Source: Acidobacteriota bacterium (GTDB lineage: Bacteria; Acidobacteriota; UBA6911; RPQK01; JAJDTT01). From it: a stretch of 64,000 nt of DNA. Every line of letters starts with the position of its first letter. Position 1 is the stretch's first letter. The position numbers and the translations under genes are program-made. The notes beneath the pieces were generated by a model, which was not told the origin of the DNA, made no database searches, and saw only the letters and a program-made list of their open reading frames with translations. The DNA lies in NCBI GenBank assembly GCA_965217775.1, contig CBDCJH010000002.1, forward strand, positions 1,088,001 through 1,152,000. The letters run 5' to 3'. Shown here piece by piece: positions 4,023 through 64,000 of this stretch.

Positions 4023-5204
4023 ATGAATCCCGAGACCAGCCCGTTCAGACCGGGGCAACCCGTTCCCATTGAGTTCTTCGTCGGTCGTGTCGACGAAATC
4101 AGTCGTCTGCACGGTATGGTGAAAGCCAGCACACAAGGCAGGTTCAAAATAGGATTCATCAGTGGCGAACGCGGCATTGGGAAGAGTTCCCTGGCGTCTT
4201 TCGTGCGCCACCTTCCCGAGCAAGGGAGCGCAGTCGCAGGGTGCCATGTGTCTCTTGGCGGCGTCCGGGGATTGCAGGAGATGCTAAGGAGGACCTTCAA
4301 TCGCCTCTTGAAGGAGAGCAGGGACAAGCCCTGGCACGGACAAATCCGGGAGTTTTTCGGAAACCATGTTCGCAAAGTGGGAATGTTCGGCATCAGCCTG
4401 GAATTGGATCTCAAGGACAGAGACCTGTCGACGGTTGCCCATGACTTCGTTCCAACCATCAGGCGGCTCATGGACAGTCTCAAGGGCCACAAGAGCGCCC
4501 TTTTTCTGATACTGGACGACATCAATGGACTCGCTGGTTCCGAAGCCTTCGCCAATTGGCTCAAGAGCATGGTGGACGAGATTGCCACTTCGGGACGTAC
4601 GGTGCCCCTCTGTATTCTCGTCGTCGGCCTCGAGGAAAGACGACAGGAACTGATAGAGCATCAGCGATCTCTCGCCCGCGTTTTCGAGTTGATCGACCTC
4701 GCGCCCTGGTCGACGGGTGAAGTCAAGCAGTTTTACGACACATCTTTCGACTCCGTGAACGCAAAGATCACTGACTCCGATATGGAACGACTTGTCCGGT
4801 TCACCGGCGGACTTCCTGTACTGGCTCATGAAATCGGTGACGCGGTATGGCGCACGGCGCGAAACTTGGACATCAGTGCAAGAGAAGTTACGGCCGGTAT
4901 TCGGACCGCCGCCGACGTGATCGGCCGAAAACTGCTGGAACCACGGATATTCGCCGCCATCCATAGTGAGCGTTACCGTTCGATTCTTCGAAAATTGTCG
5001 GCCGAGCCTCGGATGCGCTTTCGTAGATCGGAACTCGTGGATCGTCTGACGGACGACGAAAAAAGAGTCATGGACAATTTCCTGAGGCGTATGAAACAAC
5101 TCGGAGCGTTGGATGCCGATCCCGGAATCAGAGGCGGGTACCGATTTCCGAACCTCCTCCACGCGTTGTATTTCTGGATGGAGGCACAGCGAACCAGCGC
5201 ATGA
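4023..5204 (+). CDS. AAA/STAND-like P-loop ATPase (AAA_16/archaeal ATPase type) with C-terminal winged-helix-like region
   Basis: SPFRPG...FVGR motif, Walker A GERGIGKSS, Walker B LFLILDD, TGGLP motif. Confidence 0.85.
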   Translation: MNPETSPFRPGQPVPIEFFVGRVDEISRLHGMVKASTQGRFKIGFISGERGIGKSSLASFVRHLPEQGSAVAGCHVSLGGVRGLQEMLRRTFNRLLKESRDKPWHGQIREFFGNHVRKVGMFGISLELDLKDRDLSTVAHDFVPTIRRLMDSLKGHKSALFLILDDINGLAGSEAFANWLKSMVDEIATSGRTVPLCILVVGLEERRQELIEHQRSLARVFELIDLAPWSTGEVKQFYDTSFDSVNAKITDSDMERLVRFTGGLPVLAHEIGDAVWRTARNLDISAREVTAGIRTAADVIGRKLLEPRIFAAIHSERYRSILRKLSAEPRMRFRRSELVDRLTDDEKRVMDNFLRRMKQLGALDADPGIRGGYRFPNLLHALYFWMEAQRTSA

Positions 5205-5280
5205 ATCCGAGAGCAACGTTAACGGGACCACGTTCCGACGGCTGCAACTGCCAATCTGAGGGATTGATTGGTGACGAAAT

Positions 5281-5424
5281 ATGAAGGATCCAATCCTCAA
5301 GGAAATTCGAAAGACAAGGGACGCCCCCGCCACCAAGTTTCATTCTGACCTGCACACGATCTGCGAGGACCTTCGCAAGAAAGAGAAGATCTGCGGTCAT
5401 CCGGTCGTCTCCCTTCCGCGGTAA
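5281..5424 (+). CDS. 47-aa small protein resembling antitoxin-like partners of PIN toxins (possibly a remnant)
   Basis: Translated by hand: MKDPILKEIRKTRDAPATKFHSDLHTICEDLRKKEKICGHPVVSLPR. Resembles the DPIVEEIR..R....A.F..DL..I..DL...VVSL small-protein pattern. Confidence 0.5.
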   Translation: MKDPILKEIRKTRDAPATKFHSDLHTICEDLRKKEKICGHPVVSLPR

Positions 5425-5724
5425 ACGCATCCTCAAGAAGTCGTCCGTGTGAAATGGCGGAATCAGCCACTTCATGTCTAGCCCGCATTTCTCACCAGGT
5501 CGCTACGCGTATGATGAAAAAGAATTTGTTTTTGAGCATTTACGCGGATTATGCCAAGGTTTCTCCGGGACAGACTGCGCGCTGGGCGCTCGCTCGCTGG
5601 TCTTTTCGCCCTCAGCGCGCACATGCTCCCTCAAACGTAGTCACCACTACGCTCTCGGTCGCGAGCACGCGCTGAGGGCGAAAATCCTGCGCGATCGTCA
5701 CGCCCCCTTCTGAGAAACAACCCT

Positions 5725-7068
5725 TTATGTCGCCTGCGAAACTAGCTTGTAGCCGAGGAGACGGGCCTGGTTTCGCACCCGGCGTTCGAAACGTTGCCGG
5801 TCCTGGTGCTCGGTCTCGGTGATCTTGTCCTCCTTATAGTCCACGCGATCGGTGATGAGGCGATAGATGATCCGGGCGAGTTTATGCGCGGTGGCGACGA
5901 TCGCCGCCGGCGTGCCCACTCGGGCGCGCAGCCGGCGGAAGTATTGCCCGAGAGGCGATTGGCTGCGAAACAGGGACTGGGTGGCCCAGCGCAGAGCCTG
6001 GGCGGCCCGGTTCGCGCCCGGTCCGGTGCTGGAACTGATCACCTTGCCGCCGCTGATCTTGTTCTTGGGACACAGGCCCAGCCAGGAGGCGAAGTGCGCC
6101 GAATTGGGAAAGCGGGACAGATCCGGTCCCACTTCCGTGAACAGGACCAGGGCGGTCTGCTCCCCGATGCCGGGGATGCACATCAGGTCCGTGCCCATCA
6201 GTTGCTTCAGTTGCACCCGCAACGGCACCGCCGCAGCCGAGGCGTCCGCACCCTCTGAGGCCCTCGCTTCAAGCGGTAGCGTCGAGCGTTCGAACCCCCG
6301 GATCAGGACGGCGATTTCCTGATCACATTCCCCCAAGAGCTGCTGGAAGTGGGCATAGGTCTCCCGAGCTTGGCGTAGCGTGAACAGCAGTTCGTCGCGC
6401 CAGTTCCCTTCCAACGCTGCGATCAACAGTTCCCGTTTTCGGGTCCGAATCCGCGGGTGGGCCAAGTCGGCCAACCGGGCCGGATCCCGCTCGCCAGCCA
6501 GGATGGCGTCGATGATCCGCAGCCCCGAGAGTCCCGTGATGTCGGTGATCGCATGGTGCAGATGGACATTCATCTGGTCCATCGCCTTTTGCATGTGCAG
6601 CGTCGCCTTCGCGGCGGCCTTGACCAAGGTGTCGCGGTGCCGTAGCAGGGTGCGCACCCGACAGATCTCGTCGGCCGGTCGGAACGAGCCCCGCAACAAG
6701 CCCACCGAGTGCAGGTACCGCAGCCACTCGCAGTCGGCCACGTCGGACTTGCGTCCGGGGACCACACTCACATGACGGGCGTTGACCAGCACCACATCGA
6801 ACCCGTAGTGCTCCAGGATCTGGTACACCGGGATCCAGTAGACTCCCGTCGACTCCATGGCCACGCTTTTTACGTGGCACCCCTGCAGCCACCGCGCCAG
6901 GGCGTGCAGTTGGGAAGTAAAGCTGCGAAACGATCGGATCGGCTGCGGATCGCGGTCGGGGCGGATCGCGACGTACAGTTCCCGAGCGCCGATGTCGATG
7001 CCGGCGGCCTCCGGATGCACGACGTTGGGTTGGGCGCTCCGAGTGCCGGTGCGTTTGCGTCTTGCCAT
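5725..7068 (-). CDS. IS110-family transposase/recombinase (447 aa)
   Basis: DEDD motifs AAGIDIG, VAMESTGVYW, RKSDVADC; C-terminal IPGIG, FASWLGLCP, ISGG. GGAGG RBS before ATG 7068. Confidence 0.95.
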   Translation of the reverse strand: MARRKRTGTRSAQPNVVHPEAAGIDIGARELYVAIRPDRDPQPIRSFRSFTSQLHALARWLQGCHVKSVAMESTGVYWIPVYQILEHYGFDVVLVNARHVSVVPGRKSDVADCEWLRYLHSVGLLRGSFRPADEICRVRTLLRHRDTLVKAAAKATLHMQKAMDQMNVHLHHAITDITGLSGLRIIDAILAGERDPARLADLAHPRIRTRKRELLIAALEGNWRDELLFTLRQARETYAHFQQLLGECDQEIAVLIRGFERSTLPLEARASEGADASAAAVPLRVQLKQLMGTDLMCIPGIGEQTALVLFTEVGPDLSRFPNSAHFASWLGLCPKNKISGGKVISSSTGPGANRAAQALRWATQSLFRSQSPLGQYFRRLRARVGTPAAIVATAHKLARIIYRLITDRVDYKEDKITETEHQDRQRFERRVRNQARLLGYKLVSQAT

Positions 7069-7104
7069 GATGATTGCCTCCACGTTGATTTGGAAAATGT
7101 GCCA

Positions 7105-7295
7105 ATATGGAGCGGGGCGGCCAGGGCGTGAGTTCCGGTAATCTTCTGTTTGGGATGATCCTCTCTGGCTTGCTGCCAGGGAGGATCTCACCATGGATTC
7201 CGCCACCCGCCCCGGGACCAAGCTGATGACCGGGTTCGCCTCGAAAGGCTCAACGCCAGTGGGGGACCGGACTACTTCACGCCCCACTCCGAAAC
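7105..7295 (-). ncRNA. candidate IS110 bridge/seek RNA
   Basis: Lies within ~300 bp of non-coding sequence upstream of the transposase. TAGAAT -10-like box at 7303-7308 on the minus strand, 11-bp closing stem (7109-7119/7280-7290), 13-bp hairpin at 7157-7187, and 8-9 nt matches to target and element ends. Confidence 0.6.
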
Positions 7296-7527
7296 TGGCC
7301 CCATTCTAGCGAAAGCGAACCCCCCTGTTTCTCTTAGGATTTCGCCGGCCCCAGGCCGGTGGGGGAGCTGGTGAGAAATGCGGGCTAGGATAAGAACGCA
7401 GAATGGGAGCCTGCGGCGTTATAAGGAATTAAGTCTGGAGACGGTGTGGGTCATCGATGGAGAGTCCGTGTCCCGGGTGGGGAACGCTACCCGGATCGCT
7501 CAATAATTCGTACATGGGTAAATCTTC

Positions 7528-9981
<2,454 letters not shown>

Positions 9982-20674: not shown

Positions 20675-20950
20675 ATGAGCGTCGAATTGATCAGTGTTCT
20701 GGTGGCGATGGCGGCGATTGGCCTCGCTTTGGCGGGGTTGATCCTCACAACCAACCGGGGTCTGCGTCAGGATATGGCCCAAATGGAGAAGCGGCTGGAC
20801 GGCAGGATCGACGCTCTCGCATCTCGCTTCGATGAGTTTCAATCCCAGATGGAACGTCAGATTTCCGCGCTCCGTGAGCGTATGGCGCATGTGGAAGGAC
20901 TTTTGAGCGGACTACGAGAAGCCATCGTCAGACGGTCAATCGAGGGCTAG
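20675..20950 (+). CDS. small membrane-anchored coiled-coil protein
   Basis: GGAGG RBS, N-terminal TM helix, heptad coiled coil ending LRERMAHVEGLL. Confidence 0.75.
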   Translation: MSVELISVLVAMAAIGLALAGLILTTNRGLRQDMAQMEKRLDGRIDALASRFDEFQSQMERQISALRERMAHVEGLLSGLREAIVRRSIEG

Positions 20951-21193
20951 CCCGCATTTCTCCCCAGGGGGCGTGACGATCGCGCAGGATTTTCGCCCTC
21001 AGCGCGTGCTCGCGACCGAGAGCGTAGTGGTGACTACGTTTGAGGGAGCATGTGCGCGCTGAGGGCGAAAAGACCAGCGAGCGAGCGCCCAGCGCAGTAT
21101 GTCCCGGAGAAACCTTGGAAAATTCCGCGTAAATGCTCAAAAACAGATTATTTTTCATCATACGCGTAGCGACCTGGTGAGAAATTCGGGCTA
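20948..21193. mobile_element. MITE family A copy 2 (intact, 246 bp)
   Basis: Ends TAGCCCGCATTTCTCCCCAG / CTGGTGAGAAATTCGGGCTA. Reverse-complement match to 5479-5708 plus 7370-7387. Confidence 0.92.
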
Positions 21194-61397: not shown

Positions 61398-62540
61398 GTG
61401 ACATTCTCGCAGGCCGTGGCTGAGACCTCCCCCAGCAACACATCGACGCCCCGAACTATCACCGGGGAAGTCCTGACGCGGGATCTCACTCGACTTGGGG
61501 TCCGCCGGGGGGACTGCGTCATGCTCCACAGCTCCTTGAGCAGCTTGGGGTGGGTGGACGGGGGTGCGGCGACGGTGGTGGAGGCGTTCCTGGACGCCAT
61601 GGGACCGGAGGGGACGTTGCTGACGCCGGCCTTTACGGGAGGCGCCTGGACCGAGCACATGGCCCTCCCGGACTGCCGCGACGTCTGCCCCCAGCCCTTC
61701 TGTCCCAGCCAGTGGGCCAGCCGGGAGGGAGCGATCCCGAACGCCGCCCTGCAGCGCCCCGGCCGTCTCCGAGGCTGCCATCCCACCCACTCCTGGGTCG
61801 CCAACGGGGCGCGGCGACGGGAGGCGCTACGCGGACAACGGGACTGTCCGACCCCCTGCGGCCGAGGGAATCCGTTCGAGAAGGTGGTGGAGTGGGACGG
61901 CTGCATCGTCATCCTGGGAGTCGGCGTCGACACCATCACGCTCTGGCACTACTACGAGGATCTTCTGGAGGTGGACTACCTGGGCTACTATCATCCGGAG
62001 GCGCGGCATCTCTCTTATTGCGCCACCGGAAAACGGATTCAATACGACTTCCCCGGGATCATGCAGGACGTGGTCCGGGCCTCCAGAATCATGACCACGG
62101 GAAAGGTCGGGAGAAACGAGTCGGGGTTGATCCGGGCTCGCGTCTTCCGCCGGTTCATGGCCACCATCATGGCCGACGATCCCGATTGTTTCGTGTTGAG
62201 GCCGGCGGATGCGACGAACGGCGACTTGGCCGCCGACGCACTGGCCAAGGGATCCGCCATGCTCCGGGCTTGGCGCCGGGGTCCCGTTGAATTGCCCGTG
62301 CGGATCGACCTGCCGCAAGGCTACGACGATCTGGTGCGGGAGGACTGCCCCTCGTTTGCCGGCTACCACGAGGCGGACGGCCGGCGATGGCCTCTCTGCT
62401 GGGCCAACGACCGGCATCCGGAGTTGCACCACCACGGAGGAATCTTCGATCGTCTGGGAAAGACCTGCTGTGGCCGGTGTTCCTGGCACCATCGATATCC
62501 GGAGGGATCGGCCCGGTCGGAGAACGAAGGTCAAGGTTAG
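61398..62540 (+). CDS. AAC(3)/YokD-family N-acetyltransferase-like protein with Cys-rich extensions
   Basis: LGVRRGD.VMLHSSLSSLGWVDGGA, GTLLTPAFT, GAIP, HPTHS, ILGVG..T.T.WHY.E. Confidence 0.82.
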   Translation: MTFSQAVAETSPSNTSTPRTITGEVLTRDLTRLGVRRGDCVMLHSSLSSLGWVDGGAATVVEAFLDAMGPEGTLLTPAFTGGAWTEHMALPDCRDVCPQPFCPSQWASREGAIPNAALQRPGRLRGCHPTHSWVANGARRREALRGQRDCPTPCGRGNPFEKVVEWDGCIVILGVGVDTITLWHYYEDLLEVDYLGYYHPEARHLSYCATGKRIQYDFPGIMQDVVRASRIMTTGKVGRNESGLIRARVFRRFMATIMADDPDCFVLRPADATNGDLAADALAKGSAMLRAWRRGPVELPVRIDLPQGYDDLVREDCPSFAGYHEADGRRWPLCWANDRHPELHHHGGIFDRLGKTCCGRCSWHHRYPEGSARSENEGQG

Positions 62541-62550
62541 CCGGAACTTC

Positions 62551-64000
62551 TCACCGGGAGTCGAAGCGAAAGGCGAACAGGTCCGCGTCCTTCAGGACGA
62601 AGCGAAGACGCACTGGTCGTCCGGCCAGCTCGCCGACGCCCGAACCCTGCTTCCAGCGGATCTCCCGCTCCAGTTCGTCCCCGAAGTTGGGCGGGGAATC
62701 TTCCAGGGTGTAGCCCTCCAAAGGCATCCCCGCGGCGTCCTGGATCTCCACCTGAAGGCTCCCCGCCGCCGAGGTGGAGAAGTTCAGCAGCAGGCGGTCC
62801 CCCTGGAAGCGAATCGGACGAGTGATGATTTCTCCGCCCGGCATGGGTGCCGAGACCGTCACGAACCCGTCTAACCTCAGGGTGTACCGCCGCAGGTTGA
62901 GACTTTCCCCTGTCCAGTACCCCTCGGTGGCGTAGAAGGAAATCTCGTTGGGAGCTCCCTCGATGTGGCTTCGGGTCTCCACCAGACCCCAGTTCTGATT
63001 GTTGTCCCCGTAGACCCAGTTGTCGACCGGTCTCAGCCCGGGACGGATGAAGGCTTCCGGCCAGCGGTGGAAGTGGATCCGGTCGCGGCTTGCCATCAGG
63101 AGACCATCGGTGAGGCCGGTTCCGTAACGGAGGCTGACGCCGGCTCGCAGCCGGCGATGCTCCAATCCCGGGAGGGCTCTCATGGAATCGGACCATCCCC
63201 GCTCAAGGTAGCGGTTGGGAAACCCCAGCAGGATGTGAGGGGCCCGGTGGTAGGGAATGATCTGGTTGGTGTAAAGATGTTCGTCCCGGGAGCCGGGGTA
63301 GTTCAGCCAGACCGGATCGGTCCAGTTCAGAAAGTCCTGGGAAGTTCCGGTCATGACGTCCCGGATACCCTTGGTCCTCGGCTGATTCTCCGCAGTGGGC
63401 CTGAAGTCGCGATGGTATTCGCGGTACTCGTTTCTAACCGAATCCCAGAAAGCCAGGTTCTGGGAGTCGAAGTAGCCCTTGGTGATGACCGGGCGGTCCG
63501 CCATCAACTCCCAATGGATGCCGTCAGCCGACTTCCAGGCGTAGAGCCCCCATTTACGGCTCAAGGAGAAGGCCTTGTAGCGCGCATCGGACGAGGCCGC
63601 CGGGTTGGCATCCTTGAAGGGGACGAAGTTACGGATAATGTCGCCGTTTGGAAGCCGATCCATGAGGATGTTGTTCCGCTTGGACCCCTCGAACTCGACC
63701 AGACCCAATTGGGGTCGATACCAATGGATACCGTCCAGGCTCTCGGCGTAGCAGGTCACCTGCCGGCGTGGGAACTCGAGCTTCTTCCCGGTCACGAAGT
63801 GCCAGCCCCGGTAGTACATTCGATAGCGGTTTCCGTCCCGGAAGATAGTGAAGGTGAAGCAGGCATTCCCCTCCCAGGGCCGATCGGTCACCAGGGCCAC
63901 TCCCCGGGGAATCGGTCGTTGTAACTGGAGTCGAGCCTCGCCGCGGAGTTCTTCCACCAGGCTCGGTTCCACGAACAACTCCAGCCGGGAACCCACCTCC
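62551..64000 (-). CDS. 5'-partial beta-propeller glycoside-hydrolase-like protein
   Basis: LELFV, YAESLDGIHW, SADGIHW, FDSQNLAFWD, LRRYTLRLDGF. Frame runs to the window edge. Confidence 0.8.
   Translation of the reverse strand, partial: EVGSRLELFVEPSLVEELRGEARLQLQRPIPRGVALVTDRPWEGNACFTFTIFRDGNRYRMYYRGWHFVTGKKLEFPRRQVTCYAESLDGIHWYRPQLGLVEFEGSKRNNILMDRLPNGDIIRNFVPFKDANPAASSDARYKAFSLSRKWGLYAWKSADGIHWELMADRPVITKGYFDSQNLAFWDSVRNEYREYHRDFRPTAENQPRTKGIRDVMTGTSQDFLNWTDPVWLNYPGSRDEHLYTNQIIPYHRAPHILLGFPNRYLERGWSDSMRALPGLEHRRLRAGVSLRYGTGLTDGLLMASRDRIHFHRWPEAFIRPGLRPVDNWVYGDNNQNWGLVETRSHIEGAPNEISFYATEGYWTGESLNLRRYTLRLDGFVTVSAPMPGGEIITRPIRFQGDRLLLNFSTSAAGSLQVEIQDAAGMPLEGYTLEDSPPNFGDELEREIRWKQGSGVGELAGRPVRLRFVLKDADLFAFRFDSR

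What the first reader, a model, noticed from the sequence alone, without database searches (positions are those of the whole stretch)
5479..7387. IS110 element inserted at a CT core inside a MITE, with an empty MITE copy in the same window
The intact MITE-A (20948-21193, reverse strand) reads ...GTCACGCCCC-CT-GGGGAGAAATGCGGGCTA. Copy 1 reads ...GTCACGCCCC-CT-[IS110]-CT-GGTGAGAAATGCGGGCTA. This defines the exact ends, the target (TCACGCCCC CT GGTGAGA) and the predicted circle junction (GTGGGGGAG CT TCTGAGAAA). IS110 members are known to target repeats such as REPs and transposon ends. Here the site is the inner edge of a MITE TIR, and both TIRs stay intact, so the IS could also hitch-hike in the MITE. 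The empty copy differs at one target base (GGGGAG versus GGTGAG), which might explain why it is unoccupied.
Basis: partly seen in the sequence, partly recalled or inferred. Interest (0 to 1): 0.8.

Follow-up and report, generated by a model that had tools for sequence, protein, structure and literature searches.

The report
IS110 insertion sequence inside a MITE
A 1.66-kb RNA-guided (IS110-family) insertion sequence sits at one exact spot inside the end repeat of a small mobile element, and all three of its copies in this genome do the same; targeting of repeats is already known for this family, so the case is clear but not surprising.

Summary
Window 5709-7367 is a 1659-bp IS110-family element with a 447-aa transposase on the minus strand. 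It is flanked by CT on both sides and lies 18 bp from the outer end of a 21-bp MITE terminal repeat. The MITE copy at 20948-21193 is the matching empty site. The ~300-nt leader upstream of the transposase folds into a two-module RNA supported by covariation. Its loop strands match the flanks and one IS end. This pattern covaries across relatives from other phyla. It predicts the target CCCC-CT-G(A/G)TGA.

- 17 MITE ends with a fully suitable target are also empty, so the one-base difference is not needed to explain the empty copy.
- The three host MITEs differ, so nothing shows hitch-hiking.

Extras: four MITE copies carry an apparent IS-loss scar, other samples hold an allele lacking both MITE and IS, and this subgroup places its guides in the order reported for IS1111-type elements. 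It is a new member of a known kind, of moderate interest.

The parts
5478..5481 (.). Left copy of the CTAG (or TA) target duplication of the MITE.
   Evidence: The sequence is. The joint 5477->7385 in contigs of runs X1 and X7 skips 1907 nt with 4 ambiguous letters. Flanks of 38 MITE pairs read ..cT|AG...CT|Ag...
5479..5708 (+). Left part of the occupied MITE. It holds the left 21-bp terminal inverted repeat, an internal GC-rich hairpin at about 5598-5686, and the left half of the IS target (..CACGCCCC-CT).
   Evidence: Searches show 96% identity to the empty copy over 230 nt. The hairpin appears as a chance Rfam hit.
5707..5708 (+). Left copy of the core dinucleotide CT (AG in the sense of the transposase).
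5709..7367 (-). IS110-family insertion sequence, 1659 bp.
   Evidence: There are three genomic copies at 100, 99.9 and 98.9% identity.
5709..5719 (-). Right end of the IS by gene orientation. It is a 3-nt extension plus the box GAGAAACA, which is inverted-repeated in the leader. Its last bases are matched by RNA segment E.
5725..7068 (-). Transposase (bridge-recombinase type) CDS, 447 aa plus stop. GGAGG lies 9 nt upstream of the ATG.
7069..7367 (-). Non-coding left end (leader), 299 nt.
7106..7294 (-). Predicted bridge-RNA-like structured region with two stem/internal-loop/hairpin modules.
   Evidence: RNAalifold on 15 relatives gave 27 pairs, 17 of them with compensatory changes.
7261..7268 (-). 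Segment B (GGUCCCCC), on the 5' strand of the first loop. Its CCCCC is complementary to the G of the core plus GGGG of the flank next to the IS right end.
7221..7230 (-). Segment C (GUCAUCAG) plus 2 nt (CU), on the 3' strand of the first loop. It is identical to the flank next to the leader plus the core. The extra 2 nt equal the first 2 nt of the IS and resemble a handshake guide.
7143..7151 (-). Segment E (AAACAGAAG), on the 3' strand of the second loop. Its CAGAAG is identical to the last 4 nt of the IS plus the core.
7303..7308 (-). -10-like hexamer TAGAAT inside the leader. It is a candidate promoter for the RNA and is only inferred.
   Evidence: The sequence is, and similar boxes align in relatives. 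The consensus promoter scan found nothing.
7326..7335 (-). Leader box AAGAGAAACA, the inverted repeat of the right-end box. This sub-terminal inverted repeat covaries across the clade.
7368..7387 (+). Second CT (7368-7369) plus the outer 18 bp of the right MITE terminal repeat (GGTGAGAAATGCGGGCTA).
7385..7388 (.). Right copy of the CTAG (or TA) target duplication of the MITE.
20948..21193 (-). Empty MITE copy of 246 bp including the TA. Its target reads CCCC-CT-GGGGAG, and the variant base is at 20963.

Best explanation
Window 5709-7367 is an intact IS110-family insertion sequence. It consists of a DEDD/Tnp recombinase gene preceded by a ~300-nt leader.

The element integrated by conservative site-specific recombination at a CT dinucleotide, 18 bp inside the right terminal inverted repeat of a TA/CTAG-flanked MITE.

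The leader most likely encodes a bridge (seek) RNA with two internal loops:
- In the first loop, the 5' strand (CCCCC) pairs with one strand of CCCC-C.
- The 3' strand of the first loop (UCAUCAG) pairs with the other strand of CT-GATGA. A G:U wobble allows CT-GGTGA.
- Together these specify the 11-bp target CCCC-CT-G(A/G)TGA, which the MITE family supplies in about 20 copies.
- In the second loop, the 3' strand (CAGAAG) matches the IS right end plus the core. It would hold the circularised donor junction GTGGGGGAG-CT-TCTGAGAAA.

Shown: the ends, the empty site, the family of the protein, 3 of 3 copies at the same site, the covarying RNA fold, and the covariation of segments C, E and (in part) B with flanks and ends across relatives.

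Inferred: transcription of the leader, the circle, and RNA-DNA pairing as the cause of the site choice.
For: Ends and empty site.

Protein family: PF01548 and PF02371; NF033542 at 263 bits against a cut-off of 140; IS621 transposase 8wt6 at E 5.4e-11, with the GID, E and SG positions aligned.

Site specificity: 3 of 3 full IS copies found by blastn of the whole genome lie at ..CA(C/T)GCCCC-CT|IS|CT-G(G/A)TGAGAAATGCGG... They sit in three structurally different MITE variants.

RNA fold: RNAalifold on 15 leaders from several phyla gave 27 pairs, 17 with compensatory changes. Segments B and C lie on the two strands of the first loop, and E lies on the 3' strand of the second.

Guides:
- Segment C equals the flank plus the core. 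Over 43 distinct guide/flank pairs (17 guide classes), 194 of 301 positions match. Shuffled pairings gave a mean of 113.6 and a maximum of 148, and 0 of 10000 reached the observed value.
- The 2 nt after C equal the first 2 nt of the IS in 6 of the 8 subfamilies for which one search printed both.
- Segment E equals the right end plus the core in every subfamily listed. The matching motifs are CAGAAG, TAGAAG, TGGGAG, TGAAAG, TAGGAG and CAGGAG.
- Segment B is the reverse complement of the core G plus the flank in 6 of 13 B classes, including ours. Examples are GCCGAC/GTCGGC, GGGGAC/GTCCCC, GGCGAC/GTCGC and CGGGAC/GTCCC. The observed sum of runs was 134. Shuffles gave a mean of 71 and a maximum of 102, and 0 of 10000 reached the observed value.

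Layout in print: the layout of one guide per DNA strand flanking a hairpin, with the core included and handshake bases after one guide, is the one described for IS621. I read passages of PMC11208160 and PMC11208158.

Circle junction: a relative IS has a tandem copy joined as right end-AG-left end, the predicted circle-type junction (L005).
Against: - No RNA data. Rfam has no matching family and the sigma-70 scan found no promoter.
- The fourth guide, for the leader-proximal IS end, could not be located convincingly.
- Segment B fails to match the flank in 6 of 13 classes and matches only partly in 1. The failures include all 11 copies of the closest relative, L001.
- The guide matches in our IS are short: 7 nt with one wobble, 5 nt, and 6 nt. 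On their own they are not significant. A 9-nt match elsewhere in the leader is reached by 85 of 1000 shuffles.
- The permutation tests ignore relatedness, so they overstate support.
- I placed the boundaries of relatives' ends by comparing copies and by motifs I chose. This is partly circular for segment E.
- 11 non-MITE sites carry the same 11-mer and are empty. The data cannot tell whether the 11-mer alone is sufficient; the chance that all 3 insertions fall in MITEs anyway is (20/31)^3 = 0.27.
- No circle junction was seen. Only contigs were available.
Confidence: 0.8

Rival explanations
1. The IS did not choose this locus. It arrived here as cargo of the MITE: the 1907-bp MITE+IS composite was moved by the MITE's own, unidentified TA/CTAG-type transposase.
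For: The outer 18 bp of both terminal repeats are intact, and a CTAG duplication flanks the composite. Contigs from two other studies (X1 at depth 47.9, X7 at depth 56.2) join 5477 to 7385 and so lack both MITE and IS. No allele with the MITE but without the IS was seen at this locus.
Against: The three IS copies sit in three different MITE backbones, of 244 bp, half-diverged, and 134 bp. At least two of the insertions are therefore independent IS events. No second copy of this particular composite exists. No transposase-bearing element with these repeats was found within 8 kb of paired repeats. The X6 contig 5218-5507 shows the MITE at this locus, but it cannot say whether the IS is inside. 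Contigs cannot order the events.
Confidence: 0.1
2. The site is chosen mainly by something other than RNA-DNA pairing. Candidates are a DNA structure of the MITE, or direct protein recognition of the terminal repeat, with the short guide matches being secondary.
For: All 3 insertions are in MITEs, although 11 of 31 genomic 11-mer sites are outside MITEs. For ISPpu10, a target stem-loop beside the paired bases is reported as an extra specificity determinant (abstract of 10.64898/2026.03.19.712850). A 17-bp-stem hairpin lies about 20 nt from the CT in full-length MITEs.
Against: The 3-of-3 result is not significant (0.27). IS copy 3 sits in a 134-bp variant that lacks the internal hairpin. Guide/flank covariation across relatives whose targets are unrelated to this MITE argues that pairing is the general rule in this clade.
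Confidence: 0.15
3. The MITE copy in the window is empty because its single base change (GGGGAG for GGTGAG) blocks insertion.
For: The changed base pairs with the fourth base of segment C, where it gives an A:G mismatch in the middle of the 7-bp duplex. For IS621, single mismatches in the target guides are poorly tolerated (passages of PMC11208160).
Against: 17 MITE ends with the same 11-mer as the occupied copies are empty too. Of these, 16 extend through GAGAAA, and of the MITE ends listed, 12 read GGTGAG and 4 read GATGAG. Occupancy is only 3 of about 20 suitable sites, so an empty site needs no special explanation.
Confidence: 0.3

Closest known systems
IS621 and its bridge RNA (IS110 family). 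I read passages of Durrant et al. 2024 (PMC11208160) and Hiraizumi et al. 2024 (PMC11208158).
   Same: - DEDD plus Tnp recombinase with an SG motif.
- Non-coding RNA upstream of the gene.
- Two internal loops, each with one strand pairing to each DNA strand and covering the core.
- Two handshake-like bases after one target guide.
- CT core and insertion into a genomic repeat.
   Different: - The proteins are only distantly alike (E 5.4e-11 over two short stretches), and ours is 447 aa against a 328-residue chain.
- CT is on the strand antisense to the genes (AG in gene sense).
- The order of the two guide types along the RNA is reversed in gene-sense terms.
- The long guide (7-9 nt) is the one next to the handshake bases, and the short one has 5-6 nt.
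- The element has a sub-terminal inverted repeat.
- No junction promoter is evident.
ISPpu9 and ISPpu10 of Pseudomonas putida. I read only the abstracts of PMC12288879 and 10.64898/2026.03.19.712850.
   Same: - IS110-family elements whose copies all lie in copies of one intergenic repeat (REP).
- ISPpu9 has a small non-coding module that moves using its transposase, which resembles the short elements sharing our IS's termini.
- ISPpu9 circles make no hybrid promoter.
   Different: - The target here is the terminal inverted repeat of a MITE, not a REP hairpin.
- No stem-loop requirement is evident, since one host lacks the internal hairpin.
[quoted passage not shown] I saw only the title, in the reference list of PMC11187229.
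   Same: An IS110/IS1111-type element inserts at a fixed position inside the terminal inverted repeat of another transposable element.
   Different: - Those elements have the non-coding region downstream and 11-13 bp sub-terminal repeats.
- Here the host is a non-autonomous 134-244 bp MITE, and the non-coding region is upstream.
seekRNA of IS1111-type elements such as ISEc11. I read passages and section 6 of Siddiquee et al. 2024 (PMC11187229).
   Same: In gene-sense terms the segment complementary to the top strand precedes the one matching the bottom strand. This is the order reported for IS1111-type seekRNAs. A sub-terminal inverted repeat with a 3-nt extension is present at the right end.
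   Different: - The non-coding region is upstream, as in the IS110 type.
- The repeat is only 8-10 bp, and its left copy lies 32 nt inside the end rather than 7.
- The transposase is 447 aa, within the size range that paper gives for the subgroup around IS110 itself (395-455 aa).

Membership tests
IS110 family (RNA-guided DEDD transposase / bridge recombinase) | N-terminal DEDD RuvC-like domain | tested here: met
   PF01548 at E 2.3e-18, residues 23-167. The GID and E positions align with IS621. The two later D residues were not checked one by one.
IS110 family (RNA-guided DEDD transposase / bridge recombinase) | C-terminal Tnp domain with the G--P----SG motif | tested here: met
   PF02371 at E 5.5e-16. 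The ORF contains GLCPKNKISGG, aligned to the IS621 stretch holding its SG. The motif is as worded in PMC11187229 section 6.
IS110 family (RNA-guided DEDD transposase / bridge recombinase) | Curated whole-protein model | tested here: met
   NF033542 equivalog at 263.4 bits against a cut-off of 140.
IS110 family (RNA-guided DEDD transposase / bridge recombinase) | No terminal inverted repeats. A short core (2 nt) is present at both junctions and once in the empty site. | tested here: met
   CT lies at 5707-8 and 7368-9 and occurs once in the empty copy.
IS110 family (RNA-guided DEDD transposase / bridge recombinase) | Sequence-specific insertion | tested here: met
   3 of 3 copies lie at the same site.
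IS110 family (RNA-guided DEDD transposase / bridge recombinase) | Long non-coding end that encodes a structured RNA with a target loop and a donor loop | tested here: inconclusive
   The fold has 17 of 27 pairs covarying. Three guide segments covary with flanks or ends. The fourth guide was not found. Transcription was not tested. There was no Rfam hit.
IS110 family (RNA-guided DEDD transposase / bridge recombinase) | Circular intermediate with right end-core-left end junction | not testable with these tools
   Only assembled contigs of public runs were available and no such joint was listed. A tandem junction of that form exists in relative L005.
IS1111 subgroup | Non-coding region downstream of the transposase gene | tested here: not met
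   There are 16 nt downstream and 299 nt upstream.
IS1111 subgroup | Sub-terminal inverted repeats of 11-13 bp with 7-bp left and 3-bp right extensions | tested here: not met
   An 8-10 bp repeat exists and covaries across the clade, and its right extension is 3 nt. But the left copy lies 32 nt inside the end. The definition is from PMC11187229.
IS1111 subgroup | Top-strand complement precedes bottom-strand match in the RNA | tested here: met
   Segment B (complement of the top strand, gene sense) lies 5' of segment C.
MITE (host element) | Short, non-coding, with terminal inverted repeats, a target duplication, many copies, and presence/absence polymorphism | tested here: met
   - The repeat is 21 bp.
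- There are 38 repeat pairs within 2.2 kb of each other: 13 of about 244 bp, 10 of 134 bp, others, and the 3 holding the IS.
- Flanks are TA/CTAG.
- An allele without the MITE occurs in X1 and X7.
- The MITE end is present in 9 of 9 genomes of the genus.
- The cognate transposase was not identified.

The most novel reading that the evidence does not exclude
This long-transposase subgroup of IS110 may represent an architecture that has not been described. It has a bridge RNA upstream of the gene, as in the IS110 type. But its CT core is on the antisense strand, its guide order is IS1111-like, and it has a covarying sub-terminal inverted repeat. In this genus it also forms a three-level nest: a MITE; the IS110 element that uses the MITE's terminal repeat as its landing pad; and short non-coding elements that share the IS termini and occupy the same CT in related species. 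Two-base scars in MITE copies would record past IS losses.
Probability: 0.3. Interest if true: 0.55.

Novelty: new member of a known kind. Interest (0 to 1): 0.35.

Why it matters
The locus is a natural example of RNA-guided insertion in which every piece needed for a test lies in one genome:
- occupied sites;
- wobble-matched, perfectly matched and single-mismatch empty sites;
- apparent loss scars;
- 11 off-MITE sites with the same 11-mer.

This allows a direct test of how many paired bases this distant branch of bridge recombinases needs, and whether context beyond pairing matters. It also gives guide assignments for a subgroup (447-aa enzymes) that differs in layout from the two systems studied so far. 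That may interest people who mine new bridge recombinases. For the biology of the organism itself it is ordinary: one mobile element parked harmlessly inside another.

Tried and rejected
- Rfam scan of 5000-8000. It found no bridge-RNA family. The single weak hit (mir-2068, 24 bits against a gathering score of 99) is just the MITE's internal hairpin.
- Promoter and terminator scan. It found no sigma-70-type promoter. The TAGAAT box I name rests only on my reading.
- Single-sequence fold of the leader. The z-score was only -2.1, so I relied on the alignment fold instead. A first RNAalifold run on a wider alignment gave little.
- Leader matches to the target that first looked striking. These were GGGGCGUGA (9 of 9), UGGUGAGA and UCACGCCC. 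They lie in scaffold positions conserved in relatives with other targets. A 9-mer match is reached by 85 of 1000 dinucleotide shuffles. I reject them as guides.
- An antisense RNA reading of the leader. I considered it and dropped it, because it does not restore the IS621 geometry and the conserved boxes and Shine-Dalgarno sequence fit the sense strand.
- The guide for the leader-proximal IS end. I looked on the 5' strand of the second loop. There was partial resemblance in ours and in L001 and none in the other groups, so it was not assigned.
- Search for an autonomous partner of the MITE. Only chance pairs of repeats 2-7 kb apart turned up. None was followed further.
- Public runs. All 24 runs are kept as contigs, so a rare circle junction or excision product could not be seen, and none was listed. 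Joints with short sides (5641/5642->7370/7372 and 5707->7370) come from other MITE copies and say nothing about this locus.
- Structure prediction, complex prediction, atlas and large protein searches were not used, because the family was clear without them.
- Supplementary files of the papers were not opened. The supplementary phylogeny and alignments of PMC11187229 and the supplementary data of PMC11208160 may already show the guide order of this subgroup.
- I did not search the literature specifically for that point. My only two searches were bridge RNA terms; IS110, MITE, terminal inverted repeat, target. I therefore make no claim that it is absent from print.
Full report
1. WHAT IS THERE

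The window's + strand reads ...GATCGTCACGCCCC-CT|TCTGAGAAACAACCC... at 5694-5724. It reads ...GGCCGGTGGGGGAG-CT|GGTGAGAAATGCGGGCTA at 7354-7387. The reverse strand of 20948-21193 reads the same MITE uninterrupted...GATCGTCACGCCCC-CT-GGGGAGAAATGCGGGCTA.

The inserted segment is therefore 5709-7367 (1659 bp), with CT present at both junctions and once in the empty copy.

On the minus strand the element carries one ORF. From the ATG at 7068, which has GGAGG 9 nt upstream, it encodes 447 aa. The protein shows:
- Pfam PF01548 (DEDD_Tnp_IS110) and PF02371;
- NCBIfam NF033542 'IS110 family RNA-guided transposase' at 263 bits against a cut-off of 140;
- the solved IS621 transposase as best PDB relative (E 5.4e-11), with the GID, E and SG positions aligned.

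There are 299 nt of non-coding sequence upstream of the gene and 16 nt downstream.

2. THE HOST ELEMENT

The host is a MITE with a 21-bp terminal inverted repeat, TAGCCCGCATTTCTCACCAGG.

A scan of the genome for the repeat with up to 3 mismatches gave 135 hits on contig C2. They form 38 inverted pairs within 2.2 kb of each other: 13 of about 244 bp, 10 of 134 bp, several other sizes, and the 3 that hold the IS. Another 59 hits are unpaired. The flanks read T|A, mostly CT|AG.

The IS sits between CCT and GGTGAG, 18 bp from the outer end and inside the 21-bp repeat.

The right-end motif of the MITE occurs in 9 of 9 genomes of the genus that were searched.

3. DOES THE REFUTATION TEST BITE?

No. 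blastn of the IS against the whole genome (2 contigs, 6.43 Mb) finds three full copies, at C2:1093709-1095367 (the window), 2209669-2211327 and 2286565-2288222, plus one 51-nt fragment.

All three copies have the same ends and the same position in a MITE-family member. The left flanks read ..TCACGCCCC-CT..TCATGCCCC-CT and ..TCACGCCCC-CT. The right flanks read CT-GGTGAGAAATGCGGGCTA, CT-GGTGAGAAATGCGGACTG and CT-GATGAGAAATGCGGGCTA.

The three hosts are different:
- a full-length MITE;
- a MITE whose left half is diverged (88.6% over 132 nt only);
- a 134-bp deletion variant.

The three IS copies differ at 20 positions in all, and each keeps an intact 447-aa ORF.

4. HOW THE SITE IS PROBABLY CHOSEN

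I fetched 66 loci encoding relatives of the transposase, at 42-66% identity, from genome collections. They include 11 full copies of one element in a Spirochaetia MAG, one element in an Acidobacteriota MAG, and many in Acidobacteria.

Ends of the closest relative. Its 11 copies define its ends. The flanks are unrelated except for (C/G)TCAAG-AG on the leader side. One tandem pair is joined as right end-AG-left end.

Alignment of the leaders. It shows conserved scaffold interrupted by three variable segments. RNAalifold on 15 of the leaders predicts 27 pairs, 17 with compensatory changes, which form two modules:
- In the first module a basal stem encloses segment B, an apical hairpin and segment C.
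- In the second module segment E lies on the 3' strand.

Segment C. In the sense of the gene, C ends in AG and repeats the flank next to the leader plus the core. Over 43 distinct guide/flank pairs, 194 of 301 positions agree. Shuffled pairings gave a mean of 113.6, and 0 of 10000 reached the observed value. The two bases after C repeat the first two bases of the IS in 6 of the 8 subfamilies where one search printed both.

Segment E. It repeats the last bases of the IS plus AG in every subfamily listed.

Segment B. It is the reverse complement of the core G plus the other flank in 6 of 13 classes. Inside the acidobacterial group four B variants each fit their own flanks. B fits partly in 1 class and fails in 6. 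The failures include all 11 copies of the closest relative.

These permutation figures ignore relatedness and are therefore too optimistic. I placed the ends of relatives by comparing copies and by motifs of my own choosing.

In our IS the segments are:
- C is GUCAUCAG (window 7230-7223);
- B holds CCCCC (7265-7261);
- E holds CAGAAG (7148-7143).

Read on the window's + strand these predict the target CCCC-CT-GATGA. Copy 3 sits in exactly that sequence. Copies 1 and 2 sit in CCCC-CT-GGTGA, where the U of segment C would face a G (a wobble pair).

5. RELATION TO THE PUBLISHED MECHANISM

For IS621 I read the relevant passages. They describe the following:
[quoted passage not shown] - Two handshake bases follow the right target guide and pair with the donor after strand exchange.
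- The core is CT on the sense strand.

Here the core is AG on the sense strand, and in gene-sense terms the two guide types come in the opposite order.

If 'top' is instead defined as the strand that carries CT, everything falls into the IS621 scheme. B becomes the left target guide on the 5' strand. C becomes the right target guide on the 3' strand, followed by two bases complementary to the donor's left half. E becomes the right donor guide.

The difference is then that the gene cassette lies inverted relative to the core, and that the long guide is the right one.

Siddiquee et al. state that IS1111-type seekRNAs have the top-strand complement first and IS110-type ones the reverse (passage). 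Ours follows the IS1111 order, although its non-coding region is upstream.

It also has an 8-10 bp inverted repeat between a leader box (AAGAGAAACA, 7335-7326) and the right end (GAGAAACA plus 3 nt, 5719-5709). This repeat covaries across the clade: AAGGAACA/TGTTCCTT, AAGTAAC/GTTACTT and GATGAACA/TGTTCATC. It does not meet the IS1111 definition of 11-13 bp with a 7-bp left extension.

That paper says the subgroup around IS110 itself has 395-455-aa transposases and that further families may hide in the IS110 group (section 6). I could not see its supplements, and I did not search for a description of this layout.

The mismatch idea. The G in the window's empty copy (20963) faces the fourth base of segment C and gives an A:G mismatch. 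A weaker target is therefore plausible.

But the 11-mer CCCCCTG(A/G)TGA occurs 28 times unoccupied in the genome: 17 times in MITE ends and 11 times elsewhere, with about 12 expected from composition. Of the MITE ends listed, 12 read GGTGAG and 4 read GATGAG. Most suitable sites are empty, so the empty copy needs no explanation.

With 20 of 31 matching sites in MITEs, three hits in MITEs have a chance of 0.27. Extra context dependence, as reported for ISPpu10 (abstract), is neither shown nor excluded. One host lacks the MITE's internal hairpin.

The hitch-hiking idea. Three different hosts mean at least two independent IS insertions. No duplicate of any composite exists.

Contigs of two other studies join 5477 to 7385 with a 4-letter overlap (CTAG), which is an allele with neither MITE nor IS (X1 and X7). 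A contig of X6 runs from the left flank into the MITE. A 2215-nt contig of X5 covers 5579-7383 with 17 differences and then diverges, as expected for the counterpart of IS copy 2. This shows recent mobility at the locus but cannot order the events.

7. OTHER OBSERVATIONS

Scars. Four MITE copies read CCCT-TCTGAGAAA(T/C)GCGG instead of CCCT-GGTGAGAAATGCGG. They keep the first 9-10 bases of the IS end.

The IS end and the MITE share TGAGAAA, so the two junctions are 9-of-11 direct repeats (CTTCTGAGAAA and CTGGTGAGAAA). Deletion of the IS by slippage or homologous exchange within the 7-bp identity would leave exactly this two-base change. Recombinase-mediated excision at CT would not.

The four copies belong to three or four MITE subtypes whose other members read GG. 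The GG form also mirrors the left repeat and is therefore ancestral.

In the genus the scar form is found 4 times in this genome, once each in G002 and G007, and not in six other genomes. The normal form is in all nine. Gene conversion among MITEs is an alternative I cannot exclude.

Distribution of the IS. The full IS is found only in this genome among the 41 relatives searched. A 70% relative is in G005. Thirteen of 41 genomes have some match, a count that includes the unpublished G016.

Short repeats sharing the IS terminus. The last 46-48 nt of the leader end recur as short non-coding repeats in most genomes of the genus. By my reading of the contexts, about twenty occur in this genome. 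tblastn finds no further transposase except a 32% relative at C2:322577-323703 and a fragment.

In G003 and G007 (the same locus in both), a 199-nt element ends with this terminus and begins with GGTGAGAAAC. It lies at the very same CT of a MITE end. One 86% counterpart lies at C2:4420575-4420770. These look like non-autonomous derivatives, comparable to the ssr9 module of ISPpu9 (abstract), but I did not define their limits.

8. VERDICT

The finding is correct and the element is real and intact. It behaves like the IS110 family is known to behave: site-specific, RNA-guided insertion into a repeated sequence. Published precedents for repeats as targets are REPs and transposon terminal repeats (title seen).

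It is a new member of a known kind. The guide layout of its subgroup, the scars and the short derivatives add moderate interest.

Noticed in passing
G000 C2:791992-792234, 1848149-1848282, 4962192-4962325, 6235444-6235586 (outside the window): Four MITE copies read CCCT-TCTGAGAAA(T/C)GCGG at the IS target, so they keep the first 9-10 bases of the IS end. They look like scars of IS loss by exchange within the 7-bp TGAGAAA shared by the IS end and the MITE. The scar form occurs 4 times here, once each in G002 and G007, and not in 6 other genomes of the genus.
   Followed up: partly
window 5478-7388 versus runs X1 and X7: Contigs from two other studies join 5477 to 7385 with a CTAG overlap. This is an allele of the locus with neither the MITE nor the IS.
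   Followed up: partly
G000 C2:4306330-4306375, 4420725-4420770, 3164361-3164401, 3954363-3954410 and about 15 more; also G001-G003 and G005-G007: The last 46-48 nt of the IS leader end (hairpin plus ..GGCCGGTGGGGGAG|CT) recur as short non-coding repeats. They mostly lie in intergenic hairpin clusters and are often followed by TT(T/C)CTCT. No transposase is attached.
   Followed up: partly
L074 and L075 (G003 and G007, same locus), about locus position 1350-1560; G000 C2:4420575-4420770: A 199-nt non-coding element begins with GGTGAGAAAC and ends with the IS leader terminus. It lies at the same CT of a MITE end in two related species. One 86% counterpart lies elsewhere in this genome. It may be a non-autonomous derivative mobilised by the IS.
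   Followed up: partly
window 7326-7335 and 5709-5719; relatives L001, L012, L014, L024, L031, L040 and L044: A sub-terminal inverted repeat between a leader box and the right end covaries across the clade. Its right extension is 3 nt, as in IS1111-type elements, although the non-coding region is upstream.
   Followed up: partly
L005 (Spirochaetia MAG): Two copies of the 66% relative IS lie in direct tandem, joined as right end-AG-left end. This is the form of the predicted circle junction.
   Followed up: no
L010 (Acidobacteriota MAG), upstream 150 nt and downstream 40 nt of the IS: The 64% relative is preceded by a fragment of a second, related leader that breaks off right after its own C segment. 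It is followed by an (AAG)n run and a GGGGGGACA..TGTCCCCCC hairpin, of a kind also seen in this genome's intergenic repeats.
   Followed up: no
G000 C2:322577-323703 and C2:4433323-4433727: There is a second, distant IS110-family transposase gene (32% identity) and a fragment of another.
   Followed up: no
window 62538-62555: A further MITE-repeat-like 18-mer with 3 mismatches. It corresponds to the unpaired hit at C2:1150539.
   Followed up: no
Acidobacterial relatives L013-L049: Their left flanks share a loose consensus (..GAT.(A/G)GT(A/C)C...AAG) and their right flanks begin TCGGC or TCCCC. These relatives may also target a repeated sequence in their hosts.
   Followed up: no
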